Assembly: GCA_041651535.1 (NCBI GenBank)
Contig: JBAZIZ010000003.1
Location: 19,357-83,356 of the forward strand
Source of the DNA: Patescibacteria group bacterium
GTDB lineage: Bacteria > Patescibacteriota > Patescibacteriia > Magasanikbacterales > UBA922
Reading direction: 5' to 3'
DNA: 64,000 nt
Shown: positions 8,185 to 52,910 of the stretch, one piece after another
Layout: every line of letters starts with the position of its first letter
Numbering within the stretch: position 1 is the stretch's first letter
Notes under the pieces: generated by a model
Told to the model about the DNA's origin: nothing
Seen by the model: only the letters and a program-made list of their open reading frames with translations
Database searches by the model: none
Made by a program: the position numbers and the translations under genes

Positions 8185-8214
8185 AAGGGACAAATCCACT
8201 GGATCCGTCCCCCC
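8175..8214 (-). terminator. hairpin GGGAC-(15 nt incl. GGATCC)-GTCCC plus T-run just 3' of the VR/target stop
   Basis: Minus-strand reading: ggggggacggatccagtggatttgtcccttttatttt. DGRs commonly carry a GC hairpin downstream of the VR. Confidence 0.5.
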
Positions 8215-8237
8215 AAAAGTTTCAAAATTCCAAAGCC

Positions 8238-8966: not shown

Positions 8967-9129
8967 GGTAATTATTTGTAATGTGCTGATAATTATTTAT
9001 TACTAAATAACAAATTATAATAACATATTATAAGTGTTTTGTCAACCTAATTAATCACTTTTTCGCTTATTTTAGCTAAATTTTGATTAAAAAAATAGGT
9101 GAAAATATAAGAATAAACAAAAAAACAAT

Positions 9130-37516: not shown

Positions 37517-37560
37517 AGGTGCTTGCACCGCCAGGTTGTTTATTCAACCTGGTTTTTTAT
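37517..37560. terminator. double hairpin (ggtgcttgcacc; ccaggttgtttattcaacctgg) plus T7, closing the rSAM-peptide unit
   Basis: T-run on the plus strand. Convergent with the stop of the minus-strand HExxH gene. Confidence 0.5.
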
Positions 37561-38154
37561 TTTATGCCAAAAAGCAAAAACTGAAATATCAAATTCTTTT
37601 TTAAATAATTTATTAAAAGTATTTATTGTTTTTTTTGAAAGGGCTATTTTGTCTAAAAATGATTTAAATTTTTCTTCTCCAAAAACTACAATTAAACTAT
37701 TTACCATATGAAAACCAAAATTATAAATATAAGCATTATTTTTTTCATAATAAAATTTCAAATTTTTTACCCCTTTAAAATTTGTTTTTTTATTTTGTCC
37801 AGCTAAAAAACAGGCCAAACCTTCATTTAACCACAAAGGTTTTAAATCGTTTATTTTTTCTTTAAAATAAAGATGAACTAATTCGTGTTTTAAAGTACGC
37901 CAGTAATCTTCACGATCTTTATGATTTGATTCTTCTAAAAATTTTTCGTAACATAAAATATGAATGTTACCATCTCTTGCCCAACCAACTAGCCAATCAG
38001 GAGTTTCTTTTTTAAAAAATTTATTTATTTCTTTTCTTGAATTATACAAAAATATTTTAGGCTCTTTTATCTTTACAGAAAAAAAATTTTCAAATTCTTT
38101 TTTTGTTTTTTTAAGTAAATTTTTAGTTTTTAAATCATTAATTTTTAGCTTCAT
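37540..38154 (-). CDS. putative zinc metallopeptidase (HExxH)
   Basis: HELVH with downstream WLNEG (possible third ligand Glu); 204 aa, basic, no signal peptide. Confidence 0.45.
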   Translation of the reverse strand: MKLKINDLKTKNLLKKTKKEFENFFSVKIKEPKIFLYNSRKEINKFFKKETPDWLVGWARDGNIHILCYEKFLEESNHKDREDYWRTLKHELVHLYFKEKINDLKPLWLNEGLACFLAGQNKKTNFKGVKNLKFYYEKNNAYIYNFGFHMVNSLIVVFGEEKFKSFLDKIALSKKTINTFNKLFKKEFDISVFAFWHKIKNQVE

Positions 38155-38170: not shown

Positions 38171-38340
38171 AAAAATCTTGTTTACCTGCTAATTCTATTT
38201 TTTCTTCATTAGCACATTCATATTTTACTGAGTATGAAAAAGGTTGTGGGGTACAAGCGCAGATAATTTTAGATTTCTGATTCTAGATTTTAGAATTAAA
38301 AATATTATAACACAAAAATTAGATAAAATGAAAATTTAAC
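38171..38340 (-). repeat. truncated remnant of the giant-gene C-terminal cassette plus its upstream promoter element
   Basis: 38176-38258 matches the 5' 80 bp of the cassette (encoding ACTPQPFSYSVKYECANEEKTELAGK) up to the common breakpoint ...gtacaagc|gcagataattttagattt. The extended -10 motif is at 38304-38316. Confidence 0.7.
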
Positions 38341-38481
38341 TTAATTAAGGCAAAAAATAGTCAAATAACTTGACAAAACTGTTAAAAAGTGCTATAATTT
38401 CTTGTTATGAATATTAGGATATTGTATAATATTTATAGCACATTAGATGGATCTTTTAACAATTTATATTGGGAGTTTACC

Positions 38482-39222
38482 ATGAAAAGTCTTACTTTTA
38501 TTGCAGTATTTCTTTCTTTCTTCGCTGTCGCTTGTGGCGGCAAAGAATCTGATTGTTGTATCGTTGTCGATGACGACGAAACAACGGATGAAGTTACCGA
38601 TGAAACTTCGGATGAAACAGCCGATGGGGCAACTGAAGCTGAAATTGATGAGGTGTCTGATGGAGACATCGTTGAAAATGAAAACGAAACTGATGAAGAT
38701 GAAGAAACACTTGATGAAGATTCAGGAGAGGTTACATATCATGAACCTGAGAATCTGGACGAGTGCCAGAATTCAGTTTGTTCTGAGGTATGTGTAGTCG
38801 AGTGGGATCAAATGGGAAAAGATGTAATCTTTTACCTGTTAAATGGAGATAGTATTGAAAAATACTCTGACTGTCCCGTCAGAATCAAACTGGAAATCGG
38901 ATCAAATGACAAATGTTATACTACGGTTATTGAGACTGCGGGCTGTAATGTTACAGCTGGTTTAGACGGACGAAAAGAAGCAAATTCTTCAATGCCTATC
39001 TCTGGTTTACTAACCTACGGAACCGACAAAGTTTACTACGAATTGTCAGAAACAGATGAAACAATTCAGGAAGATGGAGTTTTTAATTACACGAGATGGG
39101 AAAACTGTATTAACACTAATGGAGTAGATCTATGTGAAAAATACGGTTTGGAAAAAGTTCAAATTGAGGGTGAGAGCTTTGGTCTAGCTTCTGAAGAAAA
39201 ATGGGTTGCCATCTCCCAGTAA
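38482..39222 (+). CDS. acidic Cys-rich lipoprotein, paralog C of the cassette-associated family
   Basis: GGGAG RBS. MKSLTFIAVFLSFFAVAC lipobox, D/E/T-rich linker, LDECQNSVCSEVCVVEWDQ motif, C-terminal ...YGLEKVQIEGE. The ORF track starts further upstream; the first ATG with a signal peptide is 38482. Higher GC than the genome. Confidence 0.6.
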   Translation: MKSLTFIAVFLSFFAVACGGKESDCCIVVDDDETTDEVTDETSDETADGATEAEIDEVSDGDIVENENETDEDEETLDEDSGEVTYHEPENLDECQNSVCSEVCVVEWDQMGKDVIFYLLNGDSIEKYSDCPVRIKLEIGSNDKCYTTVIETAGCNVTAGLDGRKEANSSMPISGLLTYGTDKVYYELSETDETIQEDGVFNYTRWENCINTNGVDLCEKYGLEKVQIEGESFGLASEEKWVAISQ

Positions 39223-39239
39223 TTTCACATTACCCAGGT

Positions 39240-39292
39240 TCCGTTTATCTCATTGTAGATAAACACTTTTGAGCCTGGGTTTTCTTTTTTAT
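39240..39292. terminator. long hairpin (acccaggttccgtttatctcattgtagataaac...gagcctgggt) between convergent lipoprotein C and cassette 1
   Basis: Nested inverted repeats followed by ttttctttttt. Confidence 0.45.
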
Positions 39293-39342
39293 AAAAAATA
39301 CTCTATTATCTAGAGTATTTTATTTTTATTTAATATTTTATT

Positions 39343-39730
39343 TTAATCTTCTGTACTTTCAGGCAAAACTACTAGATAACCATCAAAAGCTGTGAAACTT
39401 TTGTTAAAATTATCGTCTATTATCTTACCACATTTATCAGTATCACAATTCCCTTCTCTACACTCTCCATTACAATAATCCCAATTATCAGTTATCTGAA
39501 CTTTTGGTTGATAATAACAATAATAATCATTGTCTAGTAAGTTATAGGTTTTCTTTAAAGTATTTTTTAAATTGGTACAAAGAGTTGTATCAGTACTTGT
39601 TCCACCAAAACAATGTTCTTCTGTAATATCACCTACTTTTTCTTGTTTACCTGCTAATTCTGTTTTTTCTTCATTAGCACATTCATATTTTACTGAGTAT
39701 GAAAAAGGTTGTGGGGTACAAGCGCGGATA
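39343..39730 (-). repeat. orphan C-terminal cassette 1 of the giant protein (variant tail)
   Basis: Encodes ...ACTPQPFSYSVKYECANEEK...KVQITDNW, ~90% identical to the giant C-terminus, then a different 45-aa Cys-rich tail (DYCNGECREGNCDTDKCGKIIDDNFNKSFTAFDGYLVVLPESTED). The ORF-track start is a TTG inside the -10 box, so independent translation is doubtful. Confidence 0.75.
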
Positions 39731-39870
39731 ATTTTAGATTTATGATTCCAGAATTTAGAATTAAAAATATTATAACACAAAAATTCTGTAAAATAAAAAA
39801 GACCCGAGTCAGTTAAGTAATTTCATTTCTGAAAAAACTAACCAACTCGGGTGGGGATGTGGGATTTATT
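39731..39870 (-). promoter_or_regulatory. cassette-associated element: long imperfect hairpin terminator plus extended -10 TTTGTGTTATAAT
   Basis: 139/140 bp shared with 41232-41370 (minus a 7-bp tagaatt unit). Contains acccgagtcggttaag...ctaaccaactcgggt, which forms a stem on the minus strand followed by ttttttatttt, then the promoter 13-mer. Confidence 0.55.
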
Positions 39871-40762
39871 TAGGGAGTGGAACGAAGTCAATATCCGACC
39901 ACCTATAACACGGGCCTTCTATACCTTCAACATATACTGGTTCATCTCCTTCTTCTTCACACCAATTTATTCCATCATTATTGATACAACTTGTGTAATC
40001 TCCGTAGTTGTATTTTTTTTTCCCTTGCCAAGTTTCACCAGTATCAGAAAAGAAAAAGTAAATTAATGTGCCATAATACGGATTATTAAGGTCTTCTTTT
40101 GTCCCCTGAACAGGTATTTTTTCAGACTCAATTTGTGAATAATCCCAAGCTATTTCTGTATGATCTACAAAGTTCGCATAACATATGTTATGCGAAGTTT
40201 CAAGCCAAATATCAAGATAGCTATCTTTACTATCAATTTCTTCTCCATTTTTGGCTAGATTGAACCAAAAAATCCTTTCTTTTGTCTCCTCATCCCACAT
40301 AAGAAGACAAAGCTGAGAACACGGAGAATCTTTACATTCTTCCAGATTCTGCAGCTTTACAAAACTTGGATCAGCTGGGACCTCATAATCTGTACAATAC
40401 AGGTTACTATCCCAAGCTTCTCTACAGTAGAAAACTTCTGGATCCTGTCCAGAATTTTCTCTGCATTTTCTTTCTCCTTGCCAGAAGCCATCGACACAGA
40501 CAAGTATCCACTGTCCATTATCAACAGTAGAGCACATTCTGTCTCCATCAGTACAAACTGGTTCAGTTGTGTCCTCGTCAGTGGACACTGTATCATCTGC
40601 TTCATCAGTTGATTCGACGACATCTTCATCCGGATTTTCATCTATAGACTCATCAGTCTTAGACTCGTTATCCGGAAGGGTTGGTTCTTCTCCACTGCAT
40701 GATACAGCGAAGAAAGAAAGAAACACAATTACAAAGATAATGCATTTCATGGTAATCTCCAT
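39866..40762 (-). CDS. acidic Cys-rich lipoprotein, paralog B
   Basis: MEITMKCIIFVIVFLSFFAVSCSG lipobox; acidic linker near-identical to paralog A; LEECKDSPCSQLCLLMWDE motif; divergent C-terminal domain. Confidence 0.6.
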   Translation of the reverse strand: MEITMKCIIFVIVFLSFFAVSCSGEEPTLPDNESKTDESIDENPDEDVVESTDEADDTVSTDEDTTEPVCTDGDRMCSTVDNGQWILVCVDGFWQGERKCRENSGQDPEVFYCREAWDSNLYCTDYEVPADPSFVKLQNLEECKDSPCSQLCLLMWDEETKERIFWFNLAKNGEEIDSKDSYLDIWLETSHNICYANFVDHTEIAWDYSQIESEKIPVQGTKEDLNNPYYGTLIYFFFSDTGETWQGKKKYNYGDYTSCINNDGINWCEEEGDEPVYVEGIEGPCYRWSDIDFVPLPK

Positions 40763-40858
40763 CTATAAAGTTATATAAATCCCTTGTAAAGAACAATATT
40801 AAATATGATTATTTAACAATATAATATAGCACTTTTTTGCTCTTTTGTCAATATTAAC

Positions 40859-41231
40859 CTAGTTTTCTGTGTTTTCAGGTAAAACTACGAGATATCCATT
40901 GAATTTTGTAAATGATTTGTCATTATCCTTATTACATTCCTTAGGACTTGTTCCATAAAGCCCGTTATTACAATACCCCCAATTATCAGTTATCTGAACT
41001 TTTGGTTGATAATAACAATAATAATCATTGTCTAGTAAGTTATAGGTTTTCTTTAAAGTATTTTTTAAATTGGTACAAAGAGTTGTATCAGTACTTGGTC
41101 CACCAAAACAATGTTCTTCTGTAATATCACCTACTTTTTCTTGTTTACCTGCTAATTCTGTTTTTTCTTCATTAGCACATTCATATTTTACTGAATATAG
41201 GAAAGGTTGTGGAGTACAAGCGCAGATAATT
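40859..41231 (-). repeat. orphan C-terminal cassette 2, an exact copy of the giant gene 3' end
   Basis: 40859-41221 is identical to 42187-42549 (the stop codon and last 121 codons of the giant gene). No in-frame start, because an extra tagaatt unit shifts the upstream TTG/ATG out of frame. Confidence 0.85.
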
Positions 41232-41370
41232 TTAGATTTATGATTCTAGATTTTAGAATTTAGAATTAAAAATATTATAACACAAAAATTCTGTAAAATA
41301 AAAAAGACCCGAGTCGGTTAAGTAATTTCATTTCTGAAAAAACTAACCAACTCGGGTGGGGATGTGGGAT
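41232..41370 (-). promoter_or_regulatory. cassette-associated terminator/promoter element, copy 2
   Basis: Identical to 39731-39870 apart from a tagaatt indel and 1 SNP. Extended -10 motif at 41274-41286. Confidence 0.55.
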
Positions 41371-42090
41371 TTATATTACAAACACAAAATAAAATGATCC
41401 TCCGAAGAAAGTTTCCACACCTTCTATCTCAACGACTTCCAATCCAAATTCTTTACATGTATCACGACCTGCCTGAGCGTCATAACACTCTACATAACCC
41501 TCCATTCTCAATTCTTTTTCTTCTCTAAAAAAGAAGCTGAATTGTCTCTCAGTTCCCAAATAAGAGACATGTTCAAGAGGTATTTTATAGCCTTCGGTAA
41601 TTGCATCTTCTTTTCCAATAAATGAATTTTCTGGAACAGAGAAAAAACATTTTTCAAAATTATCCACAAAAAGTTTAAACTTGAAACTTCTTTGGTCATC
41701 ACAGTTTACGCTATTACTTGTCTTTTTTTCACACCATTTACCGCTATTTGCTCCTTCATCCCACAGAAGGAAACAAATTTCTGAACAAGAAGAATTTTTG
41801 CATTCTTCCAAGCTTTGTAATTCTGTATAGACAATCTCCTGATCATCTATATCAGAATCATTTTCTTCTTCAGATTCAGTATCGATTTCAGTTGTGTCCT
41901 CGTCATTGGACACTGTATCATCTTTTACTTCATCATTTTCTTCGACGACATCTTCGTCTGGATTTTCGTCTATAGACTCATCAGTCTTAGACTCGTTATC
42001 CGTAAGGTTTGGTTCTTCTCCACTGCATGATACAGCGAAGAAAGAAAGAAACACAATTACAAAGATAATGCATTTCATGGTAATCTCCAT
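41371..42090 (-). CDS. acidic Cys-rich lipoprotein, paralog A (immediately downstream of the giant gene)
   Basis: Same lipoprotein signal and acidic linker as paralog B; LEECKNSSCSEICFLLWDE motif; C-terminal ...CKEFGLEVVEIEGVE. Confidence 0.6.
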   Translation of the reverse strand: MEITMKCIIFVIVFLSFFAVSCSGEEPNLTDNESKTDESIDENPDEDVVEENDEVKDDTVSNDEDTTEIDTESEEENDSDIDDQEIVYTELQSLEECKNSSCSEICFLLWDEGANSGKWCEKKTSNSVNCDDQRSFKFKLFVDNFEKCFFSVPENSFIGKEDAITEGYKIPLEHVSYLGTERQFSFFFREEKELRMEGYVECYDAQAGRDTCKEFGLEVVEIEGVETFFGGSFYFVFVI

Positions 42091-42186
42091 CTATAAAGTT
42101 ATATAAATCCCTTGTAAAGAACAATATTAAATATGATTATTTAACAATATAATATAGCACTTTTTTGCTCTTTTGTCAATATTAAC

Positions 42187-45100
42187 CTAGTTTTCTGTGT
42201 TTTCAGGTAAAACTACGAGATATCCATTGAATTTTGTAAATGATTTGTCATTATCCTTATTACATTCCTTAGGACTTGTTCCATAAAGCCCGTTATTACA
42301 ATACCCCCAATTATCAGTTATCTGAACTTTTGGTTGATAATAACAATAATAATCATTGTCTAGTAAGTTATAGGTTTTCTTTAAAGTATTTTTTAAATTG
42401 GTACAAAGAGTTGTATCAGTACTTGGTCCACCAAAACAATGTTCTTCTGTAATATCACCTACTTTTTCTTGTTTACCTGCTAATTCTGTTTTTTCTTCAT
42501 TAGCACATTCATATTTTACTGAATATAGGAAAGGTTGTGGAGTACAAGCACGGGTAGCATCACCAAAGAAATTTTCTTCTGCATTTTTTATACACGAATT
42601 ATTTGCACATTCACTATTTTCTTTACAAGTGATTTGTGTGCCAGAACATCTACCAATTTCGTTTGGTTCATCATCACAATATGGTTTTCTATTTTTAAAC
42701 AAACCTTTTGTACCACTTCCTCCTATCACTTCATCATTTTTTCCAGTATCTAAAATAACTGTTTTTATCGGCATTTGATCATCATCAGCATAAGCGTAAA
42801 AAGATAAATAAGCTTCAAAAGGAGAATTTTTTATAATGATTTTTTTGCCTGTACTATTGTTTACTGAAGTCTCTGTAATATTATCAATACTTAAATTATC
42901 AAAATCTCCTAACACATATTTTTTATTTATTTCATCATATTTTACTCCAAAAATTCGTGGTGAATTTATAGAATAAAGTTTTTCAAAGAAAGTTTGTCCT
43001 GTTCCACTACTCAAATGATCAATTAATGAAGTTCCGGGTGCTTGTTTATCTTTAGATTCATCAAATTTATAATAAGCGGCAGCAAACACATCCATAAAAG
43101 ATGTATTATTTGGAAAAGATGCAGTTATAAATTCATGTTCATTTAATGTAGTAAACTGTTTATATTCTGGATTAATATCAGACGCGGTAAAATCAAGTGC
43201 TTTAAACAAACCATTTGTTTTTGTTGGGATTCCAGAAGTTTCAAAATCATAGTCAATTATTTGGCTTTTATCTATTACTGAAAAATAATAAAATCTATCA
43301 AAATCTATTACTGTTGTTTTATTATTTTGCAAATCCGTCTCTGTTTTAAAAACATCATCTGTTCTTTTTGTTAAAGATCCAAAAGGAGCATTTGAATAAT
43401 TTTTTATTTTTGAAACTGAATCCACTAAAGTTTCTATGTAAATATCAGAATAAGTGGTAGCATTTTTTAAATTTTTAGTTAAAGTTTTATCCAAACCTTT
43501 TTTTCCAGACCACAAAATATCTGTTCGCGGTTTTGTGTTATTATTTAACAAATTATTATCATAAAGTACTCCATATTCAGTACATTTACTATTTAATTCT
43601 ACGATAACTGCAAGACGCATACCATAACTTTCGCCGTCTGAATTATCATGAGCATCTATAAATCTAGATATATAGCCAAGAAAATCTCCATCTTCATTAA
43701 AATCCAAACCAATAGCTAATAAAGTTGCATTTTCTTCTTCATTCAATCTATCTGAATCCCCACGTCCAAAATAAAAAGGATCAGATTGTTTATTAATAGT
43801 ATTTTCTAATGATATATCTTGACAATTATTTTCTGTGCACAGAGAATTTAAAGTGGTTTTAGAATTATTTTGATTTAAAATAGAATCTGAATAAAAATAT
43901 CCAACATATCTTGTTTTAATTTCATTCTTTCCTGTATCGTTATACAATTCATAGGTAAAATTAAAATCACTATTATTTTTAAAGAGAACAGTATTTTCTT
44001 TTTCTAATAAATAAGAAACAAAATTTAAACCCGAATTAGTTGAAGATCCTGAGGCCATACAAAATTTTTCATTATAACCTGTACAATAATTTTTAACAGG
44101 TGCATATAATATTTTGTTTGTGCTTTGTCTTAATTTATTAAAATCAATAGTAAAAGTTTCTGCATCTAAAAGACCTATGGTTCTCCCTTCTGCTCCAGAT
44201 ATATGTTCAATTGGTACAATATGAATTTTTGCTATTTCTTCTTCTTTAATTTTATTTTCTAGTTCACTTATATAAATAAAACTATTATTTAAGTTAGATC
44301 CATTAAAACTTTTAAAATTAGGGGATAAAAATAAATTATAAAGATTAAATTTACTTGCTTTTTCTCCATCTCCACTATCATTACCATCATGATAAAAACC
44401 TAAAGTTTCAATTTTTGTTCCAGAATTATATGAATTATATGAAGAAGAAGTTATTTCTAAATTACTAGAATTAAAACGTATTGGGTGAATTAAAGTACCC
44501 ACATCACCATATTCGCCTGAATCTTGACCTACAGCTGGAGCAAATGATTTTACTATTCCATTTGTTAAAACTGTATAATAAGGATCATTTACGGCATCAA
44601 ATCTTAATATTCTAATATTTTTTAAATCAATTTGTCTATTCTCTTTATAAGTATCAATATTTTTTGCCCATTCATTTAACATGATATATTGTTGTTTTTC
44701 ATCGTTACTATTAATAACTTCTTTATATTTATCTGAAACTACGCCACCTCCGCCAGTGTTTTCTTCTTCTGCTTCAAAATACAGACCGGCTACTTCTTGT
44801 CTATTAAAATAATTATAAATTTTAAAGCTACATTCTCCTGAATTATAGTCATCATTACAATCGGCTGTAAAAACTGGTCTATTAAAAGCTAAATTATATT
44901 GATTATTTAATATAGTATCATTTATAGTTTGTCCATTAATCACAGTTCCTAAACCATATTCAGGAGTTTGTCCTTGTTCAGTACTATTTAAACAGAAAAC
45001 TTGGCCAAAATCATTTGAATCGGAATTCCCTTCAGTTGGATTACCTTCTGGGTTATAACCTGCTTCTGGGTTATAATTATATAAATCCATTTGTGAAATA

Positions 45101-48100
45101 CTACGGTCAGAATAATACCAAGTCAAACAAGGATAATAAGTTTTATTACCAGCTTTTTCGCCACGACTTTTATCATATTCCATACAAACACCAGTCACTC
45201 CATAATATGTTCCCTGTTGTTCTATTTTATTACATACTCCTCCTTCACCACAATCTGTATCAATAAAACAGACATCACCTGTTTTTTCACCAATTCCAGA
45301 ACAAATTCCTTGTGGAATAAATGCGTAATCAGCATTACTTTGTTTAAAATCTAGAGGCCAGTAATCAATAGTACCATCTTTATATTCTACTTTTGTATAA
45401 AGACAACTGCCAAATCCAACTGAATCATCTGGATTAGTAAAAATATTTGAACTATATTGATAATAATTTGCATTATCATATTTTGATTTTATTTTTGTCC
45501 ATTCAGTTCTATTAAAATCAGTGTCGTCTAAATTAAAATAATATCTGCCACAACTTACTTCACTTGAATCTTCATCATCTTCATTTAAATTAAAACAATC
45601 AATATATTTATCTGAATCAAAATTAGCTATTAAACGAATATCAAAAGGTGAATCTTCTTCAGGGAAAGTTTTACAAGATTCTGCATATAAATTTTCTTTT
45701 ATTTTATCTCCAGATAAAACAGCTATTAAATCTTGTTCATTTGTTACTCCTACAAAACTTGTTTCATTTTTTCCATCTACTGGTAAAATACATTTTCCAT
45801 CGTAACACACTCCAGAGGAACCATCTTTTCCAGTACAAGCAGAAAAATCAGGTTTTGTGATTGATCCAGATCCAAATAAAGCTGGTATTTTACAACTATT
45901 ATTATCAGATTCATAAATCAAATAAGCACGGGATGCATTACCATCTTGCAAATAAATAGTTTTATAACCATCCAAATTTCTTTTATTCAAAAAAGCATAA
46001 CCAGTATAATCTTTGTCATACCAACTTGGATAAGCAAATTCACTAATTCTTTCTACATATTTATTTTTATCCAAAATCTTTTCGTCATCATCAGGTTTAT
46101 TTTGTAATTTATAATTAGCACAAACTTCCACTTTGTTTCCATCACTATCTTCTTCAATAGTTTTACTAGTACATTCTAAATATTGTTCACATTCTCGATC
46201 TATTTTTACTTTTATGAGCAAATTTGATTGATTGTTTGTGTCTGAAACTGGAGAAACTAGATTATAATCATTTTCTCGGCTATTTTTATAAGTAGAAGTT
46301 GCATTATATAATTTATTTGGATATTCTTCTCTATCTAATAAAATACAACCTTGTTCTTGACTAACCATGCCACCACAACTAGCAGTCTGAGAAGTTAATT
46401 TATCATTATATAAATTATAGTATTCTTTTGGTTGATTATCAGAATTCAAATCAGCCCAATCTAAAAATTTTGTACAACCATTATTTTCTTCATCACATAA
46501 ACCGACTTTACCTTGATAACCAGCCGAGCCATTTGAAGGTAAATCACCGCAAGGCAATTCGCCTATCTTGTCACAAAAACCTTTTTCACCACATTGTGAA
46601 TCTTCTGTACAATACATATTTGAAGGATAAGAACAATAGCCAATAGCATCCACAACAACACACATCGCGCCTTCAGGACAGTCCCCGCTGTTATAACATA
46701 ATCCTGGTGGATCTAATTTACAAGAACCTACCCCTGACATATACCAAGCTGGGTCATCATTACCTACTTTTTTATATTCACACAAAGTATTTCCAGCTAA
46801 AACTGGATCTTTGAAATAAGAAATTAGATTATTTGCTGAGTAACTACCACAACCAACCAAGCTATCGTTACACAAAATTTCACTATATAATTCTGGTTTA
46901 TTTAATAAAAATACATCACCAAAAACATAAGAATCGTCATAATTTTTTCCAGCTTTGATTTGTGATTCTTTTCCCATTTCTGTACAACCAATGTCATCAC
47001 TATTACAAATATGATCATTTTTTAAAGTCAAATATACAGGTTCAGAAGTCGGTGGAATTACAACAGTAGAAGTAACTATTTCTAAATTTTTTGTATACAA
47101 CCCGGCAATATTTAAAGTGTAAAAATCATAACTATCTGATATTTTTATTTTTTTAGCAAACACTGGATTTTTTATAAATCCAAAATTAAATTCAGAAACT
47201 GAACTGATTATGTTATTATCTTCTGAATCTAAAACACAACCTGTAGAATTATTACAAAATAAATTATAAACAGCATAATATTCATCTCCATAATCATCGT
47301 TTCTATTATAAGTATCTTGAAGTTTTGCACAACCAATCGCATCTTCCCGACATAATTTTGCAAAACCAGTAAGATTAATAACACTGCCATCATTTTCTGT
47401 ATCACTATTTACTGTATAAGAACTACAACCTAAATATCTACCTGGAAATCCATCAAGCGGAGTATTATCACAAACTTCTGGAACATCATAACCTAAATTT
47501 GTTTTCCAAGAATCTTTGATAACAGCTAATCGATCATCTGCAGTATCTCCTACTTTATTTAAACGAATATTATCTAAGAAAAATATTTTATTAGTAACAT
47601 TTGATTCAAAAAATAATTGAACTGAAGCAGTGTTAATTCCATTTACTAAAATTGGTCCTAATTTATATTCTTGCCATTCATCATTTATTGACAAAGGACG
47701 CAAAGCACTAGTCAAATTATCAGTAGTTAAATATGTTTCATTTCCAGATTGAGAAAAATAAACATTTAAATTTTGGATATCACCTTTTGCCCAAAAAGTA
47801 AGTTCATACCATTTGTCATCATTTAAATTATCAAACAAAATTCCAGCGTTAAAATTATAATAAGCTGTACCACCAATAACTCGAAGAGAATGTCCACCAA
47901 CATAAGTTGATTCAGTTTTTATATCAACATCTCCCTGACTACAAGATCCACTTGATCCATTTTCACACCAATTTTCTTTTAAAATACTTAGAGCATTTTC
48001 ATCATCGCCTGCTGGTTCAAAATCATTTTCAAAAGTTTTATGTAAATTATTTCCTGTATTACCAATATATAATCGACAACCATCTGCTGAAGCTGGACAA

Positions 48101-51100
48101 GATCTAGCTTCTTCTGGAATAGAATAATATTCACAAGCTCCTTTATCATTTCCTTGATCAACATAAAAACCATTATCATAACAACGTAGACAATTATTGT
48201 TTTGCCATTTTCCACCTTTTTGTAAACAAATATTTTGATTATTTATATCATCATCTTCATACATGTTCAAATCAGTTTTACGATAAAGAGAACATTGATC
48301 AGAAACAGTAATTGTTTTATTTAAACTGCGATAAAAAATATTTCCAGCATCATCATAAAGTGCTGTACAATTATATTTATCATAATCTTCCACTGCTTCA
48401 CCATTTATATATTTATTATATTTTTCTCGATTACAAGTATTGTAACTTTCATTCAAAGAAATACTACTATCATTTTCATAAGCTGGGGAACCAACTTCAA
48501 AATGAGATTTAATTTCTGCTGAAACAGAAGTAAGATTTTCAATAAAAATTTCATCTTCTGAACTTATTTTTTTCAAATTATGTTTTTTCAAAACATAACC
48601 AGTTTTATCACTACCTTCCCAAGAATAAAATACAGATGCATTTTCACCATCAGGTAATTCACATTTTTTTGTGTCTGAAAAATAAACCAAGCTATTGGCT
48701 CCATTTCCAACTTCATCAACTTTTGTGAATTCAGAACAACCAGCATAAGTTGCTTGGCAAGTTTCAGCAGTACTTGGAATAAAATATAAAGGGAAAACAG
48801 AATCTTCAAAAGCTGAAGCATTTTGTTTGAATGTATCATAACCCACACAAGTTTCTGGACACCAATTTTGTAATTCAACTTTTCCACCTATTTCTTCTCC
48901 ACTATTTACTTCAGTATAACTTGCACAACCAACTTCATCTGGTAAACAAACACCAGCAAAATCTTCACATTCTTTTGACCTATCAGCTAAATAAAGTAAA
49001 TCAGCTTTTGATTTTGGCCATTCGATTAGCGAAGTAGTTTTATCTACATCATAACAAGCTAAATAATCAGGAGCTTTTTTTAAATGAATTTGATCTTGAT
49101 AAGTACTAGATGTAGTTTCTAAAGTTTCTGGATTATAACTATATTCTTTTTTCTCCCAATTAAATAATTCGCAACCATTAGCATCAGAAGAACAAGAGTA
49201 TTGCTCAGCTTTAGAATTTAAAAACAAATTTTGATTTCCTCCGAGAGACGCACCTTTTATATCATTGTTCAAATAAAAACTATTTATCCAATTTCCAGAA
49301 TCATTTTTATTTAAACTGTAAGCTTGGCAACCAACTGCATCAGCATTACAATCTCCGTATTCTAAAGTACGTGATAAATAAGAAGCTTCATCGCCAGTTA
49401 AATTATTAGAAAAAGTCTTACAAGTATTATAAATTGGTTCACAAGAATCTCCATAAAATTTCCAAGTATTTTTTTCTTGCAAACAATAACCGTATTTTTC
49501 ACATTTGCCATTATTATCTTCTACTACGCAAGAATCATAATCAATAACTTGTTCTTGGCGAGTATTTGTACCATCCAAAATTTCTGAACTGTAGGTTTTT
49601 AATTTTATTCTAGCTTCTGGAGCTTTGATTATCCAATTTGGATTTATAAGACCATAATAATTACCTTCAGTATAATAAGCATTTACAACTGTTTCCAAAG
49701 TTGGGTTTCCTAATTCTGTAGCTTTTTCGGCAACGATTTCAAAACCAAGAGGAATTATTCTAGCTTTACGCATTTTTTGTAAATTTGAATAACATAATCC
49801 TTTTGTATAACAATCTTTTGTTTGATTTTCATTTGAATATTCAGAATAAAATATTTGATTACCATTAATTATTCCTTCATCAATCGCTTGTTTAATCGTC
49901 ATTGGATTACCAGTATTGTATCTATTAATTACTGTTTGCCAACTGGAATCCATAACACAATTATCATTAGCAGGTTCATCTGGACAACTGACAAATTGTG
50001 AAACATAATCGTATTTTTCCAAACTCAAATTTGGTAAATCTTTTATCAAATAAGAGTAAGCATTTTCAACTGCTTTGCGATTATAATTTAAAACACTGGC
50101 GTAAGGATTTGTTACTGATTCTTTCCCTGATTCTTTGCTAGTTGGGAATAAACCATCTTGTAAAATATTTTGTGCTAAAGTTGAAACAAAAGTATTAGCA
50201 AAAGTAGAAATTGCTGTTGGAATAATTTGCCAACCGCTCACTGCATACATTCCTGCCATTTGAGTAGCACTCATTTCACCCTGTTGTTTAGCTCCAACTG
50301 CTTCTGATTCAGTTTTAACTGTTTGGGCTGGGGTTTTTATTTCTCCAGAAATCACATCTTTTACAGCTTTAAAACCATCACCTTCGGCTCTTTCAGCATT
50401 TGCTGATTCAGTTGCTTTAGCGTTCAATGAATCGATATTACTTTTAGCAACTAAAACTGTTCCTAGACCACCTTGAGTTACATCCAGATTAGCGTTGAAA
50501 ATTTCAGCAGCTGAATATTTATCTTGAACATTATCCCATCCACTTTTCATTTCATTCCAAGAACAAGATGGCTGTGGACCTTTTTCACTGCCTGAACCAT
50601 ATTCATTACTATAAATATTGCTTAAACCAACTTGTAAACTTAATTGAAAATTTAAATCTGGTGGAGTACAAAAATTCATCCCCAATACTCCTTTTCCAAA
50701 ATCAGCAATGGCTGACGCTGCAGAATCCAAAGCTACATTAGCAAAATAATCTCCTGGACTTTCTTGAAAAACAGCTGGTTTTTTTCCAACTGCTGAGTCT
50801 GCTAGATAAGTTGCAGCATCATAAGCTAATTTTCTAGTAAAATAAGAAGCAGCATTTATCAAAGAACCCAAAGCAGAACTTAATAAAGTATCTAAAATTT
50901 GATCTTTTATGTCCGCTGTTTTTTCTGGCAAACTTTCAATAACTGAAACGGGAAAACCTGCTTTTGCAATTTGTGGTCTAAACATGCCAATTGCAAAAAA
51001 ATTAAAAAATAAAAAAATACTGAGCAAAATCGACAAGGAAATTTTTTTAGCTCGATTTTTTTTAAACATAATTTTGTAGTTAGTATTTATCAAAAAATAA

Positions 51101-51111
51101 AAATTTACCAT
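42187..51111 (-). CDS. giant (2974-aa) secreted Cys/Asn/Tyr/Asp-rich surface protein
   Basis: Single uninterrupted ORF. Probable start at M15 (51069), giving MFKKNRAKK-hydrophobic-AKAG signal-like N-terminus. Numerous Cys-rich modules. No recognisable Rhs/YD, PAAR or enzymatic motifs. Confidence 0.8.
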   Translation of the reverse strand: MVNFYFLINTNYKIMFKKNRAKKISLSILLSIFLFFNFFAIGMFRPQIAKAGFPVSVIESLPEKTADIKDQILDTLLSSALGSLINAASYFTRKLAYDAATYLADSAVGKKPAVFQESPGDYFANVALDSAASAIADFGKGVLGMNFCTPPDLNFQLSLQVGLSNIYSNEYGSGSEKGPQPSCSWNEMKSGWDNVQDKYSAAEIFNANLDVTQGGLGTVLVAKSNIDSLNAKATESANAERAEGDGFKAVKDVISGEIKTPAQTVKTESEAVGAKQQGEMSATQMAGMYAVSGWQIIPTAISTFANTFVSTLAQNILQDGLFPTSKESGKESVTNPYASVLNYNRKAVENAYSYLIKDLPNLSLEKYDYVSQFVSCPDEPANDNCVMDSSWQTVINRYNTGNPMTIKQAIDEGIINGNQIFYSEYSNENQTKDCYTKGLCYSNLQKMRKARIIPLGFEIVAEKATELGNPTLETVVNAYYTEGNYYGLINPNWIIKAPEARIKLKTYSSEILDGTNTRQEQVIDYDSCVVEDNNGKCEKYGYCLQEKNTWKFYGDSCEPIYNTCKTFSNNLTGDEASYLSRTLEYGDCNADAVGCQAYSLNKNDSGNWINSFYLNNDIKGASLGGNQNLFLNSKAEQYSCSSDANGCELFNWEKKEYSYNPETLETTSSTYQDQIHLKKAPDYLACYDVDKTTSLIEWPKSKADLLYLADRSKECEDFAGVCLPDEVGCASYTEVNSGEEIGGKVELQNWCPETCVGYDTFKQNASAFEDSVFPLYFIPSTAETCQATYAGCSEFTKVDEVGNGANSLVYFSDTKKCELPDGENASVFYSWEGSDKTGYVLKKHNLKKISSEDEIFIENLTSVSAEIKSHFEVGSPAYENDSSISLNESYNTCNREKYNKYINGEAVEDYDKYNCTALYDDAGNIFYRSLNKTITVSDQCSLYRKTDLNMYEDDDINNQNICLQKGGKWQNNNCLRCYDNGFYVDQGNDKGACEYYSIPEEARSCPASADGCRLYIGNTGNNLHKTFENDFEPAGDDENALSILKENWCENGSSGSCSQGDVDIKTESTYVGGHSLRVIGGTAYYNFNAGILFDNLNDDKWYELTFWAKGDIQNLNVYFSQSGNETYLTTDNLTSALRPLSINDEWQEYKLGPILVNGINTASVQLFFESNVTNKIFFLDNIRLNKVGDTADDRLAVIKDSWKTNLGYDVPEVCDNTPLDGFPGRYLGCSSYTVNSDTENDGSVINLTGFAKLCREDAIGCAKLQDTYNRNDDYGDEYYAVYNLFCNNSTGCVLDSEDNNIISSVSEFNFGFIKNPVFAKKIKISDSYDFYTLNIAGLYTKNLEIVTSTVVIPPTSEPVYLTLKNDHICNSDDIGCTEMGKESQIKAGKNYDDSYVFGDVFLLNKPELYSEILCNDSLVGCGSYSANNLISYFKDPVLAGNTLCEYKKVGNDDPAWYMSGVGSCKLDPPGLCYNSGDCPEGAMCVVVDAIGYCSYPSNMYCTEDSQCGEKGFCDKIGELPCGDLPSNGSAGYQGKVGLCDEENNGCTKFLDWADLNSDNQPKEYYNLYNDKLTSQTASCGGMVSQEQGCILLDREEYPNKLYNATSTYKNSRENDYNLVSPVSDTNNQSNLLIKVKIDRECEQYLECTSKTIEEDSDGNKVEVCANYKLQNKPDDDEKILDKNKYVERISEFAYPSWYDKDYTGYAFLNKRNLDGYKTIYLQDGNASRAYLIYESDNNSCKIPALFGSGSITKPDFSACTGKDGSSGVCYDGKCILPVDGKNETSFVGVTNEQDLIAVLSGDKIKENLYAESCKTFPEEDSPFDIRLIANFDSDKYIDCFNLNEDDEDSSEVSCGRYYFNLDDTDFNRTEWTKIKSKYDNANYYQYSSNIFTNPDDSVGFGSCLYTKVEYKDGTIDYWPLDFKQSNADYAFIPQGICSGIGEKTGDVCFIDTDCGEGGVCNKIEQQGTYYGVTGVCMEYDKSRGEKAGNKTYYPCLTWYYSDRSISQMDLYNYNPEAGYNPEGNPTEGNSDSNDFGQVFCLNSTEQGQTPEYGLGTVINGQTINDTILNNQYNLAFNRPVFTADCNDDYNSGECSFKIYNYFNRQEVAGLYFEAEEENTGGGGVVSDKYKEVINSNDEKQQYIMLNEWAKNIDTYKENRQIDLKNIRILRFDAVNDPYYTVLTNGIVKSFAPAVGQDSGEYGDVGTLIHPIRFNSSNLEITSSSYNSYNSGTKIETLGFYHDGNDSGDGEKASKFNLYNLFLSPNFKSFNGSNLNNSFIYISELENKIKEEEIAKIHIVPIEHISGAEGRTIGLLDAETFTIDFNKLRQSTNKILYAPVKNYCTGYNEKFCMASGSSTNSGLNFVSYLLEKENTVLFKNNSDFNFTYELYNDTGKNEIKTRYVGYFYSDSILNQNNSKTTLNSLCTENNCQDISLENTINKQSDPFYFGRGDSDRLNEEENATLLAIGLDFNEDGDFLGYISRFIDAHDNSDGESYGMRLAVIVELNSKCTEYGVLYDNNLLNNNTKPRTDILWSGKKGLDKTLTKNLKNATTYSDIYIETLVDSVSKIKNYSNAPFGSLTKRTDDVFKTETDLQNNKTTVIDFDRFYYFSVIDKSQIIDYDFETSGIPTKTNGLFKALDFTASDINPEYKQFTTLNEHEFITASFPNNTSFMDVFAAAYYKFDESKDKQAPGTSLIDHLSSGTGQTFFEKLYSINSPRIFGVKYDEINKKYVLGDFDNLSIDNITETSVNNSTGKKIIIKNSPFEAYLSFYAYADDDQMPIKTVILDTGKNDEVIGGSGTKGLFKNRKPYCDDEPNEIGRCSGTQITCKENSECANNSCIKNAEENFFGDATRACTPQPFLYSVKYECANEEKTELAGKQEKVGDITEEHCFGGPSTDTTLCTNLKNTLKKTYNLLDNDYYCYYQPKVQITDNWGYCNNGLYGTSPKECNKDNDKSFTKFNGYLVVLPENTEN

Positions 51112-51135: not shown

Positions 51136-51798
51136 TTAATCAGAATTATTAACTAAGCTGTATTCTTCTTTAATCAATTTTTCAGCTACACTCAGCAAAG
51201 TTTTATCATCAATTTTATTTAATTCTTCTTCACTTATCTGTCCAGTTGAAATTAAAATCGAACGCAAAGTTGCTGGGTCTTTTAACAATTCATTCATATC
51301 AATGTCATTTTCATTTCCTTCTCCTAATTGACTTTTTACCAAAAGATCGGCAGGCGTAGCTAAAGAATCATCACCTAAAGGATTTAGATCAATAGTTGAG
51401 CTACTATATTCTGCTGAATTTGAATTTATAATACTTGAACCAGTAGCACAATTTGCTCCAATCGGACAATTTGGATCTTCTCCTTGATCAATTTCCACTT
51501 TATCTTCTACACCATCAGAATCACTATCAGGTAAATAAGGACTTGTTTCATAAAAATATAACTCTTCATAATCGTTTATACCATCATGATCTGTGTCTAT
51601 TTGTTGTAATTTTGAATTTTCATCATAATCAGACAAATTTGAAGTTTCACCATTTTCTGAACTTACTTTCAAAGCATAAGGCCCATAAATATTTCTTTTC
51701 ATCTGCATAAAACCAAGCCCAACTACTAAAATTGCAAAGAAAAACAACAAAACAAAGCCGATTTTTTGCTCTTTATTTAATTTATTTTTTTCTTCCAT
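51136..51798 (-). CDS. membrane-anchored protein with thrombospondin-type-3-like Ca-binding Asp repeats
   Basis: One TM, then DTDHDGINDYEE and DSDSDGVEDKVE (DxDxDG) repeats. 24 nt upstream of the giant gene on the same strand. First ATG with sensible N-terminus is at 51798 (ORF track 51849). Confidence 0.5.
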   Translation of the reverse strand: MEEKNKLNKEQKIGFVLLFFFAILVVGLGFMQMKRNIYGPYALKVSSENGETSNLSDYDENSKLQQIDTDHDGINDYEELYFYETSPYLPDSDSDGVEDKVEIDQGEDPNCPIGANCATGSSIINSNSAEYSSSTIDLNPLGDDSLATPADLLVKSQLGEGNENDIDMNELLKDPATLRSILISTGQISEEELNKIDDKTLLSVAEKLIKEEYSLVNNSD

Positions 51799-51823
51799 AC
51801 ACAAAAAATTACTTTCAAAATTA

Positions 51824-51836
51824 TTATAACACAAAT
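51824..51836 (-). promoter_or_regulatory. extended -10 promoter motif TTTGTGTTATAAT upstream of the TSP3-like/giant gene pair
   Basis: Same 13-mer as at 3081, 23881, 38304, 39769 and 41274. Confidence 0.4.
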
Positions 51837-52091
51837 AATTAAAAAACAAAAGAACAAAAGTGCTTTAAGTGAACATCACCACGCCCACCATCGCAAGCAT
51901 AAGCTTGCTTAGGCGTTACGGGCGGAAAAGTAAAAGTTAGGAGTCAAAAATTAAAAGGAAAAAATAATTGATACGGTTTTACTATTGTTTTTTATTGTAA
52001 AAAAAATTTAAAAACAATGAACAAACACAAAAAGAAAAACAATTTAAAAAAATGACTTTTAACTTTAGACTTTTAACTTTATATTTTTGTT

Positions 52092-52910
52092 TTAAAGTTT
52101 GTTTATTTTACTAACAATAATTATCCACTCACTAAGTCCTATTTTTTCCGCTCTAACATCTTCTCTTAAACCTATTTCTTGTAAAATTTTATTGATCAAT
52201 TTTCTATCAATTTGTAATTCTTCAGATAAATTTTTAGAAACTTGTTTTCTTTTATTTTTAAAACCAGCTTTAACTACTCTAAAAAAATTTTTTTCATCTT
52301 CTACACTATTTTTTTTCAAATCTTTTTTTATAATAATTTCAATTACTGCAGAATCAACTTTTGGTGCTGGGAAGAAACTACCACGAGCAACTTTTGAAAT
52401 CAGACGAACATCCCCATAATATTTTACTGACAAAGATAATAAACTACTTTTTTTATCTCTTTCTAAAATTCTTTCAGCAACTTCCTTTTGCACCATAACA
52501 ATTATAGATTCTGGTTTTTTTTCATTTTCTAAAAATAAACGTAAAATTTCAGAAGTTATTTGATAAGGCAAATTAGCTACAATTTTAAAATTATCTAAAT
52601 TTTTTATAAGTTCATTATAATGATTTAAAACATTACCCCAAATTATTTCAATATTTGGAAATTCAATTTGTTTTTCTTGCCAATAATCTTTTAATTTTTG
52701 TTCAATTTCAAAAGCAAAAATTTTTTTTACTTTTTTAGCTAATTCAAAAGTTAAAACACCAAAACCAGGACCAACTTCTACCACAATATCTTCTTTTTTT
52801 AAATCTGCTTCTTCAACTATTTTTTTTACCACACCAAAATTTACCAAATAATTTTGACCATATTTTTTACTAGGTTTTAAATCATATTTTTTCCAAAGTT
52901 CTGACAACAT
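52092..52910 (-). CDS. rsmA: 16S rRNA (adenine1518/1519-N6)-dimethyltransferase RsmA/KsgA
   Basis: KKYGQNYLVN...VVEVGPGFGVLT motifs. Confidence 0.85.
   Translation of the reverse strand: MLSELWKKYDLKPSKKYGQNYLVNFGVVKKIVEEADLKKEDIVVEVGPGFGVLTFELAKKVKKIFAFEIEQKLKDYWQEKQIEFPNIEIIWGNVLNHYNELIKNLDNFKIVANLPYQITSEILRLFLENEKKPESIIVMVQKEVAERILERDKKSSLLSLSVKYYGDVRLISKVARGSFFPAPKVDSAVIEIIIKKDLKKNSVEDEKNFFRVVKAGFKNKRKQVSKNLSEELQIDRKLINKILQEIGLREDVRAEKIGLSEWIIIVSKINKL

What the first reader, a model, noticed from the sequence alone, without database searches (positions are those of the whole stretch)
38171..42561. Giant-protein C-terminal cassette array, interleaved with paralogous acidic lipoprotein genes
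In transcription order on the minus strand, the giant gene (stop at 42187) is followed by lipoprotein A and then a terminator-promoter element. Next comes cassette 2, an exact copy of the giant gene's last 363 nt with no usable start. Lipoprotein B and a second terminator-promoter element follow. Then comes cassette 1, which has the same 5' breakpoint and the same 85 residues as cassette 2 but a different 45-aa Cys-rich tail. A convergent lipoprotein C follows. Last are a third promoter element and a cassette truncated after 83 bp, beside the HExxH gene. All cassettes begin at the same breakpoint (...ggagtacaagc|gc) and carry the same upstream hairpin and TTTGTGTTATAAT element. They are therefore copies of one cassette unit, not independent duplications. 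This resembles orphan C-terminal-domain/immunity arrays of polymorphic toxin systems (CdiA-CT, Rhs, MafB) and silent-cassette antigenic variation (pilS/vlsE-like). Homologous recombination with cassette 1 would swap the last ~45 residues of the 2974-aa surface protein. If the toxin-immunity analogy holds, the downstream lipoproteins could be cognate partners or immunity-like proteins. Nothing here matches a known toxin domain, so the locus may be a new recombination-based surface-variation system in a reduced-genome bacterium.
Basis: partly seen in the sequence, partly recalled or inferred. Interest (0 to 1): 0.85.

Follow-up and report, generated by a model that had tools for sequence, protein, structure and literature searches.

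The report
Silent tail cassettes behind giant gene
A tiny symbiotic-type bacterium (Patescibacteria) keeps untranslatable spare copies of the last stretch of a 2974-residue surface-protein gene, interleaved with related lipoprotein genes, and recombination with them can give the protein a different tip; the layout is known from pathogens but not from this group or this protein.

Summary
The giant gene (42187-51111, minus strand) is followed by three tandem units. Each unit holds a 5'-truncated copy of the gene's 3' end (363, 381 and 83 nt), all joined to one leader at the same breakpoint, and a paralogous acidic lipoprotein gene. The copies have no usable start codon. Cassette 1 has an ortholog in another species, with dN/dS 0.22 at dS 0.64. 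At least five related populations carry similar arrays, with eleven or more different tails and four different breakpoints. One public contig of the same species (L027) has the giant gene running directly into the cassette-1 tail. That copy also carries two nonsense codons.

The toxin/immunity reading is not supported. The C-terminal module is the conserved end of a family of about 3000-residue Patescibacteria proteins (165 representatives). The model is a beta-sandwich and matches no toxin. Only a 15-25-residue Cys loop varies. The downstream genes encode exported lipoproteins, not cytoplasmic immunity proteins.

Best reading: a homologous-recombination reservoir of silent tail cassettes, architecturally like Rhs orphans, pilS or vlhA. 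It is a new variant of a known kind. Whether switching is programmed, and what the lipoproteins do, remain inferred.

The parts
42187..51111 (-). Expression-site gene: giant protein of 2974 aa. It has one N-terminal hydrophobic segment (residues 23-46) and 96 Cys.
   Evidence: Family of about 3000-aa Patescibacteria proteins.
42187..42549 (-). Last 363 nt of the giant gene, the segment copied in the cassettes. It comprises a 222-nt homology block, the 30-nt box VQITDNWGYC (42298-42327), the variable loop (42244-42297) and the conserved last 18 codons plus stop (42187-42243).
42142..42179 (-). lipoA promoter (TTGACA-N17-TATATT). The same element precedes lipoB (40814-40851) and, inverted, lipoC (38370-38407).
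   Evidence: (I1, I2)
41371..42078 (-). Lipoprotein A, 235 aa. Signal peptide with AVSC lipobox, acidic linker, Cys-containing domain. GGAG lies 8 nt upstream of the ATG.
   Evidence: NCBI MFA5211263.1
41307..41357 (-). Terminator hairpin 1, followed by a U run.
   Evidence: -30 kcal/mol, z -7.1
41222..41284 (-). Promoter TGTGTTATAAT (41274-41284) plus a leader with about five 7-nt repeats (TCTAAAA-like), ending at the junction ...ttatctgc|gcttgtact.
40859..41221 (-). Cassette 2: exact, start-less copy of the giant gene's last 363 nt.
39866..40750 (-). Lipoprotein B, 294 aa. N-terminus identical to lipoA, with a Cys-rich insert and a diverged body.
39802..39852 (-). Terminator hairpin 2.
   Evidence: -27.1 kcal/mol
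39724..39779 (-). Second promoter (39769-39779) plus heptad leader.
39343..39723 (-). Cassette 1: same breakpoint, 85 near-identical codons, alternative loop NGECREGNCDTDKCGKIIDDNFNK, conserved end. Silent, yet under purifying selection.
   Evidence: Annotated as hypothetical protein WC414_02010.
39232..39321 (.). Two hairpins between cassette 1 and the convergent lipoC gene. The same pair is conserved in L008.
38482..39222 (+). Lipoprotein C, 246 aa, inverted relative to the array. Its ortholog sits next to the orthologous cassette in another species.
38259..38314 (-). Third promoter (38304-38314) plus heptad leader, with no hairpin.
38176..38258 (-). Cassette 0: an 83-nt stump carrying cassette-1-type SNPs, abutting the 5' UTR of the HExxH gene (37540-38154).

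Best explanation
The locus is a reservoir of silent C-terminal cassettes for a giant surface protein of a Patescibacteria (CPR) bacterium.

Origin. An illegitimate tandem duplication joined the 5' UTR of the gene downstream (a leader with 7-nt repeats) to a point inside the 3' end of the giant gene. Unequal crossing-over and gene conversion then expanded and reshuffled the units. Each unit runs: truncated 3' end, lipoprotein gene, terminator, promoter/leader.

Structure of each cassette. It keeps DNA homology to the expressed gene on the 5' side (222 nt plus the VQITDNWGYC box) and on the 3' side (the last 18 codons; in units G and 2 also the lipoprotein promoter and signal-peptide sequence). 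These flanks bracket a Cys-containing loop of about 15-25 residues that differs between cassettes.

Switching. Homologous recombination between the expressed gene and a cassette installs another loop at the tip of the protein's last beta-sandwich module. A crossover loops out the units in between. Gene conversion is also possible where there is homology on both sides. Either event changes which lipoprotein gene lies immediately downstream.

Shown: the anatomy; that the cassettes are untranslatable; purifying selection on a cassette; arrays with many tails in relatives; the mosaic identity pattern; one natural recombinant.

Inferred: that switching is adaptive (variation of a host-contact or phage/host-exposed epitope); its frequency; the role of the lipoproteins as partners.
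For: (a) One junction sequence is shared by three cassettes, and units G and 2 share 541 nt of exact identity.
(b) There is no usable start codon. Start codons in front of cassettes are not conserved among relatives: ATG in species 2, TTG/TTA in L028, TTA in L025.
(c) Cassette 1 against its ortholog in L008 gives dN/dS 0.22 at dS 0.64 over 52 codons (a rough Fisher test on approximate site and difference counts gives p about 5e-4). This resembles the adjacent lipoC gene (0.29). The Cys positions are kept and there is no frameshift.
(d) At least eleven distinct tails, every one open to the same stop position, occur in five or more related populations. Breakpoints fall at four different codons (MPIKK, KPYC, ACTPQ, VQITDNW), always joined to the same kind of leader. 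L028 shows the empty leader at the end of its array, with a 3-nt microhomology.
(e) Identity between units is mosaic, 100% then below 50% then about 95%, which indicates recombination or conversion inside the array.
(f) L027 (GCA_030154545.1) is 99-99.7% identical to the window. Its giant-gene body runs into cassette-1-type homology, tail 1 and lipoC, and lacks lipoA, cassette 2 and lipoB. The first SNP after the breakpoint is giant-type and all later SNPs are cassette-1-type.
(g) The loop is the least confident part of the C-terminal half of an otherwise fair model (pLDDT 55 against 80-94 nearby) and is hypervariable across the whole family.
Against: No clonal or time-series data show switching.

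Only one recombinant contig was found. Its giant gene carries two in-frame stop codons, and its far end is unrelated sequence, so it may be a decaying or partly chimeric locus rather than a working switch.

Cassette 1 has only about 54 nt of imperfect 3' homology. A swap to it would therefore be a one-way deletion.

Cassette 2 is identical to the expressed tail and adds no diversity.

In species 2 every contig with the giant gene's 3' end shows the same tail.

Variation in array order among short contigs could come from assembly paths through repeats of about 230 nt.

Distant family members have no arrays.
Confidence: 0.6

Rival explanations
1. By-product of lipoprotein gene-family expansion. 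Selection acts on tandem amplification and diversification of the acidic lipoprotein genes. The duplicated segment happened to start inside the giant gene, so the 3' fragments hitchhike and have no function. They look conserved because they are repeatedly overwritten from the expressed gene.
For: Every cassette is physically tied to a lipoprotein gene that has its own promoter. The lipoproteins are under purifying selection (dN/dS 0.18-0.29) and are themselves mosaic. Cassette 2 is an exact copy of the expressed tail. The promoter in front of the cassettes is a generic one inherited from the duplication.
Against: Cassette 1 and its ortholog keep a tail type that neither species currently expresses, with dN/dS 0.22 and conserved Cys. 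Overwriting from the expressed gene cannot explain that unless the expressed tail itself has switched. No frameshift or stop occurs in any of the eleven or more tails. Four independent breakpoints all preserve the reading frame through to the normal stop codon.
Confidence: 0.22
2. Polymorphic toxin system. The C-terminal tail is a toxin or effector tip, and each downstream lipoprotein is its cognate immunity protein. The orphans are displaced toxin/immunity pairs, as in CdiA-CT/CdiI, Rhs or MafB.
For: The architecture is the same: a large exported protein, 5'-truncated start-less C-terminal fragments that share homology with the main gene, and each followed by a small variable gene. A deletion that fuses main gene to orphan resembles the one in Salmonella Rhs (PMC3967940).
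Against: The module is conserved across 165 family representatives, always at the C-terminus. Only a short loop varies. There is no toxin or immunity match in Pfam, NCBIfam, PADLOC or PDB, and the fold resembles a beta-sandwich. The partner genes encode exported lipoproteins. The same cassette sits next to different lipoproteins in L012 and L013.
Confidence: 0.05
3. The cassettes are independent small genes, transcribed from the TGTGTTATAAT promoter and translated into Cys-rich peptides of about 50-130 aa.
For: A promoter lies upstream and, for cassette 1, terminators lie downstream. In species 2 every cassette begins with ATG. NCBI annotates cassette 1 as a CDS.
Against: The window cassettes have no start codon and no Shine-Dalgarno sequence; cassette 2 has an in-frame stop 27 nt upstream. 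Relatives carry TTA or no start at that position. There is no signal peptide, although the domain is disulfide-rich.
Confidence: 0.05
4. Assembly artefact: the repeats are collapsed or mis-joined strain variants in a metagenome-assembled genome.
For: The window comes from a MAG, and exact 541-nt repeats are hard to assemble from short reads.
Against: An independent ENA assembly matches 10,956 nt at 100% and breaks exactly k-1 nt inside the repeat. A separate 1069-nt contig carries lipoA alone. The same architecture recurs in several other species and samples.
Confidence: 0.03

Closest known systems
Rhs / CdiA orphan C-terminal modules (for example Salmonella Typhimurium rhs-main and rhs-orphan, PMC3967940; CDI/Rhs orphans, PMC3150448)
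   Same: A large exported protein gene is followed by 5'-truncated fragments that lack translation initiation signals and share a stretch of homology with the main gene. Each fragment is followed by a small linked gene. Recombination between the main gene and an orphan deletes what lies between them and expresses the orphan tip, which is the arrangement seen in L027.
   Different: There is no toxin domain. The swapped part is a loop of about 20 residues in a conserved beta-sandwich. The linked genes encode exported lipoproteins, not cytoplasmic immunity proteins. No demarcation motif such as VENN or PxxxxDPxGL is present, and no T5SS/T6SS context.
Silent-cassette gene-conversion systems (Neisseria pilE/pilS, Borrelia vlsE, Anaplasma msp2, Mycoplasma synoviae vlhA, PMC4206340 and PMC2825196; review PMC4534519)
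   Same: There is one expression site. Nearby lies a tandem reservoir of start-less partial copies with conserved flanks around a variable core. The copies stay in frame and under selection. In vlhA and pilS the silent copies lack the 5' end, as they do here.
   Different: Each cassette is interleaved with a full, separately promoted lipoprotein gene and is preceded by a promoter. The window holds only 2-3 cassettes. The organism is an environmental Patescibacteria bacterium with no adaptive immune system to evade. Segmental, unidirectional conversion has not been shown.
VARTIG modules of Thermococcales (PMC8416519)
   Same: A large exported protein has a C-terminal Ig-like domain that is hypervariable through recombination, followed by variable downstream genes. 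The layout resembles a polymorphic toxin system but has no recognisable toxin.
   Different: VARTIG variation is between genomes. No array of silent in-genome cassettes with a common breakpoint is reported in the abstract read here. The protein families and the domain of life differ.
Phage Mu/P1 tail-fibre G/C segments and the R64 shufflon (established knowledge, not tested here)
   Same: Alternative C-terminal tips of a recognition protein are stored next to the gene. In Mu each tip comes with its own accessory gene.
   Different: Those systems use a site-specific invertase and inverted segments. Here the cassettes are direct repeats and no recombinase gene was found among the neighbouring genes scanned. 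The predicted products are deletions or conversions by general recombination.

Membership tests
Polymorphic toxin systems (CdiA-CT, Rhs, MafB with orphan arrays) | C-terminal domain is a toxin, unrelated in sequence and fold between strains | tested here: not met
   The module is conserved at the C-terminus of 165 family representatives. There is no toxin match. The model gives only weak beta-sandwich matches.
Polymorphic toxin systems (CdiA-CT, Rhs, MafB with orphan arrays) | Immunity gene immediately downstream, tightly linked, acting inside the producer cell | tested here: not met
   The downstream genes encode proteins with a signal peptide, a lipobox Cys and 9-14 Cys in the mature part. 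The same cassette sits next to different lipoproteins in L012 and L013. Neutralisation itself cannot be tested with these tools.
Polymorphic toxin systems (CdiA-CT, Rhs, MafB with orphan arrays) | Orphan fragments lack start signals and share 5' homology with the main gene | tested here: met
Silent-cassette recombinational variation (pilE/pilS, vlsE, msp2, vlhA type) | A single full-length expression site plus several partial copies that cannot be expressed on their own | tested here: met
   The motif scan of the whole window finds only these copies.
Silent-cassette recombinational variation (pilE/pilS, vlsE, msp2, vlhA type) | Conserved flanks around a variable core, with copies kept in frame under selection | tested here: met
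   (dN/dS 0.22). The 5' box shows fewer third-position differences than the 3' flank (0.16 against 0.36).
Silent-cassette recombinational variation (pilE/pilS, vlsE, msp2, vlhA type) | Observed transfer of cassette sequence into the expression site within a lineage | tested here: inconclusive
   L027 shows the giant gene fused to tail 1 in the same species. It is a single contig, its gene carries two nonsense codons, and there are no clonal data.
Diversity-generating retroelement target | A template repeat near a reverse transcriptase that matches the variable region and differs from it at adenines | tested here: not met
   The window does contain a DGR (RT 7117-8184; TR 6611-6732; VR 8247-8368; all 19 mismatches at TR adenines). 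Its TR matches only the gene at 8238-8966, not the giant tail. Differences among cassettes include indels.
Site-specific inversion switches (shufflon, Gin/Cin) | Recombinase gene and inverted repeats flanking alternative C-terminal segments in opposite orientation | tested here: not met
   The cassettes are direct repeats. The neighbouring genes are HExxH peptidase-like, radical SAM, KsgA and a TSP3-repeat protein, with no recombinase.
Family of giant (~3000 aa) Patescibacteria proteins with C-terminal ...VQ[VI].DNWG[WY]CN...G.I[IV]V.P module | Length about 2800-3300 aa, module at the extreme C-terminus, synteny KsgA - TSP3-repeat protein - giant gene | tested here: met

The most novel reading that the evidence does not exclude
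A programmed tip-switching system for the host-contact protein of an episymbiotic Patescibacteria bacterium. General recombination, possibly stimulated by transcription through the silent cassettes and by the 7-nt-repeat leader, exchanges the hypervariable Cys loop of the giant protein. The same event changes the downstream lipoprotein, which would act as a cognate partner (anchor, chaperone or decoy). This would give a reduced genome a heritable, population-level repertoire of host or phage specificities. It would be the counterpart, by homologous recombination, of phage tail-fibre cassettes, and it would sit in the same genome as a DGR.
Probability: 0.25. Interest if true: 0.85.

Novelty: new variant of a known kind. 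Interest (0 to 1): 0.7.

Why it matters
Patescibacteria make up a large share of bacterial diversity and are thought to live attached to other cells. How they recognise hosts, and how they vary their surface, is largely unknown.

This locus points to a conserved giant surface protein whose last module carries a hypervariable loop. In one low-GC clade, spare loops are stored as silent cassettes. That yields concrete, testable predictions about junction reads, excision circles and strain-specific tails. It also names a candidate determinant of host range or of escape from phage or host defence.

The locus further shows that an orphan-cassette layout resembling polymorphic toxin systems can serve a non-toxin module. 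Such layouts should therefore not be annotated as toxin/immunity pairs by architecture alone. Five searches of the held literature returned nothing that describes this system.

Tried and rejected
- Family searches (Pfam, NCBIfam, PADLOC, PDB sequence) on the giant protein, the lipoproteins and cassette 1 gave nothing useful. The only hits were a weak CBM_4_9 match in the giant protein and sub-threshold noise.
- The lipoprotein structure prediction failed (pLDDT 45 from 7 sequences), so no fold search was run. Co-folding with the C-terminal module was not possible with these tools.
- The DGR hypothesis for the tail was rejected.
- The sortase-signal reading of 'LPENTEN' was rejected by inspection: no hydrophobic or charged tail follows it, and the family consensus simply ends in a beta-strand, G.IIV.P.
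- A search for arrays in distant family members (L003-L007, L022-L026, L030) found one module per locus. The short P0025 is the 3' end of a giant gene near the end of its contig, not an orphan.
- The exact giant protein and the 235-aa lipoA (P0154) are not on record in the contig index.
- The first homology search, with the last 274 aa, found one relative only.
- The apparent difference in array order between L008 and L011 was not counted as population variation. L009 shows the same cassette behind another lipoprotein, so repeat-driven assembly paths cannot be excluded.

Full report
OBSERVATION

On the minus strand, the 2974-codon gene (42187-51111) is followed by three tandem units of 1328, 1498 and 1465 nt. 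Each unit begins at the same junction...aaaattatc(t/c)gc|gcttgtac.... There a leader is fused to codon 2854 of the giant gene.

- Cassette 2 (40859-41221) is an exact copy of the gene's last 363 nt. The exact identity continues for 541 nt, through the lipoprotein promoter and about 70 nt into lipoA/lipoB. It then collapses to 13-48% in the lipoprotein bodies and recovers to 75-98% at the terminator/promoter.
- Cassette 1 (39343-39723) shares 85 near-identical codons (three substitutions). It then carries a different Cys-rich loop and ends with a homologous 18-codon stretch.
- Cassette 0 (38176-38258) is an 83-nt stump next to the HExxH gene.

The hairpins are strong terminators. TGTGTTATAAT is the organism's general extended -10 promoter: it has six exact copies in the window, one of them in front of the giant operon. 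The three lipoproteins are paralogs. Each has a signal peptide with a lipobox Cys, a very acidic linker and a 9-14-Cys domain. lipoC is inverted but keeps the same TTGACA...TATAAT promoter.

The cassettes cannot be translated. Cassette 2 has an in-frame stop 27 nt upstream and no start codon. Cassette 1's only upstream start is a TTG inside the -10 box.

An independent ENA assembly matches 10,956 nt perfectly and ends 140 nt inside the exact repeat. A 1069-nt contig holds lipoA alone. The array is therefore not an assembly artefact. The window corresponds to an NCBI MAG labelled 'Patescibacteria group bacterium' (WC414_02005-02020).

WHAT THE MODULE IS

A profile of the last ~185 residues finds 165 representatives among 1.84 billion proteins. 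Sixty of the 150 listed exceed 2500 aa, and the match always lies at the extreme C-terminus. Family members share the synteny KsgA - TSP3-repeat protein - giant gene. In distant, GC-rich members the gene lies next to VirB4/TraG-like, PrgI and TraC-like genes.

The module is therefore a conserved structural domain with one hypervariable loop. It is not a polymorphic toxin.

RELATIVES

Arrays occur only in a narrow low-GC clade.

- L008/L020 (GCA_964583125.1 and a JGI contig) show: giant 3' end, a lipoB-like gene, the same terminator and promoter, leader, a 54-codon cassette that starts at VQITDNW and carries a cassette-1-type loop, the same two hairpins, a convergent lipoC ortholog, then recA.
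- Other contigs of that population place further cassettes (P0092, P0027, P0152, P0151) between further lipoprotein paralogs. These paralogs are themselves mosaics of N-terminal and body modules.
- L028 has two cassettes and, at the end of its array, an empty leader. This reveals the ancestral downstream sequence and a 3-nt microhomology at the junction.
- L002 and L029 have long cassettes that break at MPIKK and KPYC.
- L025 has a cassette beside a convergent lipoprotein gene.

In all there are at least eleven tails. Every one is open to the normal stop codon, with the flanks VQITDNWGYC and ...GYLVVLPE... conserved. Four different breakpoints are all fused to the same kind of 7-nt-repeat leader. 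Start codons in front of the cassettes are not conserved (ATG, TTG, TTA or none). Distant family members have a single module per locus.

SELECTION AND RECOMBINATION

Cassette 1 against its ortholog gives dN/dS 0.22 at dS 0.64. This is comparable with lipoC (0.29) and lipoB/X1 (0.18), whereas the last 300 codons of the giant gene evolve fast (0.72). A rough Fisher test gives p about 5e-4. A decaying fragment would not behave like this.

The 222 nt upstream of the box in the window's cassettes match the window's own giant gene, not that of the other species. The homology block is therefore recent, while the tail-1/lipoC pair is old. This pattern, together with the mosaic identity profile, requires recombination between the expressed gene and the array.

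A direct example is L027 (GCA_030154545.1), which is 99-99.7% identical to the window. Its giant-gene body continues into cassette-1-type sequence, tail 1, the hairpins and lipoC. It lacks lipoA, cassette 2 and lipoB. The first SNP after the breakpoint is giant-type and the rest are cassette-1-type. A de Bruijn mis-join would need k of about 20 or less, so the junction is probably real.

There are caveats. The L027 giant gene has two nonsense codons about 275 codons from its end. The far end of the contig is unrelated sequence. The arrangement could also be ancestral rather than derived.

MECHANISM

The steps below are marked as shown or inferred.

1. Origin by illegitimate tandem duplication, from inside the gene to the 5' UTR of the next gene. 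Shown by the junctions.
2. Expansion and reshuffling by homologous recombination. Shown by the mosaics and by the arrays in relatives.
3. Exchange of the tail at the expression site, by crossover (a deletion) or by conversion. One natural instance was found; the frequency is unknown.
4. Adaptive variation of an exposed loop of a surface protein. Inferred.
5. Lipoproteins as partners of the tail. Weakly supported at best, because the linkage is not strict in the short contigs.

COMPARISON

The architecture matches Rhs/CdiA orphans (PMC3967940, PMC3150448) and silent-cassette systems such as vlhA and pilS (PMC4206340, PMC4534519). The non-toxin hypervariable C-terminal beta-sandwich recalls VARTIG (PMC8416519). 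The locus fails the toxin and immunity criteria, is not a DGR target, and has no invertase.

Five searches of the held literature found no description of such arrays in Patescibacteria. A paper on the Patescibacteria T4SS reports that no adhesin was detected in that dataset (PMC12102498).

VERDICT

The feature is real and non-random. It is most likely a recombination reservoir for the tip of a giant surface protein. It is a new variant of a known kind, in a phylum and on a protein family where the kind was not known. Interest 0.7.

Noticed in passing
window 6611-8368 (RT 7117-8184 +; TR 6611-6732; VR 8247-8368 at the 3' end of gene 8238-8966 -): A complete-looking diversity-generating retroelement. 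It has an RVT_1 reverse transcriptase and a 122-nt template/variable repeat pair whose 19 mismatches all fall at template adenines (A>T 10, A>G 9). Its target is a 242-aa DUF5701 protein with no signal peptide. It does not target the giant gene.
   Followed up: partly
L003, L004, L030 (distant relatives); window 51136-52910: The giant-protein family keeps the synteny KsgA - small TSP3-repeat protein - giant gene. In GC-rich relatives it lies beside VirB4/TraG-like, PrgI and TraC-like genes. A published survey of the Patescibacteria T4SS found no adhesin (PMC12102498), so this family is a candidate. No T4SS genes were seen among the ORFs of the window that were scanned.
   Followed up: partly
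window 41226-41266, 39728-39761, 38262-38296; L008 1975-2017; L028 ~560-596 and ~1850-1890; L002 225-260: Every cassette junction is immediately preceded by 3-6 tandem 7-nt repeats (TCTAAAA/TCAGAAA/TCATAAA; AAAAGTA in L002). This holds although the breakpoint inside the gene differs among lineages. Why all junctions abut this leader is unexplained.
   Followed up: partly
L027 (reverse strand), equivalent to window ~43010-43045: The strain variant whose giant gene carries tail 1 has two nonsense changes 30 nt apart (TCA>TAA, GGA>TGA) among about five differences in 1100 nt. Its lipoC is replaced upstream of window position ~38828 by unrelated sequence. This may be a pseudogenised locus, a chimeric contig end, or sequencing error.
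   Followed up: partly
window 42298-42327 and all cassettes in relatives: The 30-nt box GTTCAGATAACTGATAATTGGGGGTATTGT keeps the non-AT-rich codons CAG and GGG in nearly all copies across species. Pairwise third-position differences are 0.16, against 0.36 in the GYLVVLP flank.
   Followed up: partly
window 18043-19581 and 19584-21179: Two adjacent genes both match 2,3-bisphosphoglycerate-independent phosphoglycerate mutase, one much more weakly (iPGM_N 3e-32 against 2e-68). They sit in a glycolysis cluster with enolase, PGK and GAPDH.
   Followed up: no
window 9007-9088 versus 38327-38408: The region upstream of the DGR target gene is 72% similar over 82 nt to the lipoC promoter region. This may be a shared promoter type.
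   Followed up: no
window 42187-43155 versus L008 2-970: The last ~300 codons of the giant gene evolve fast between species (45% aa identity, dN/dS 0.72), compared with 0.18-0.29 for the neighbouring lipoprotein genes.
   Followed up: no
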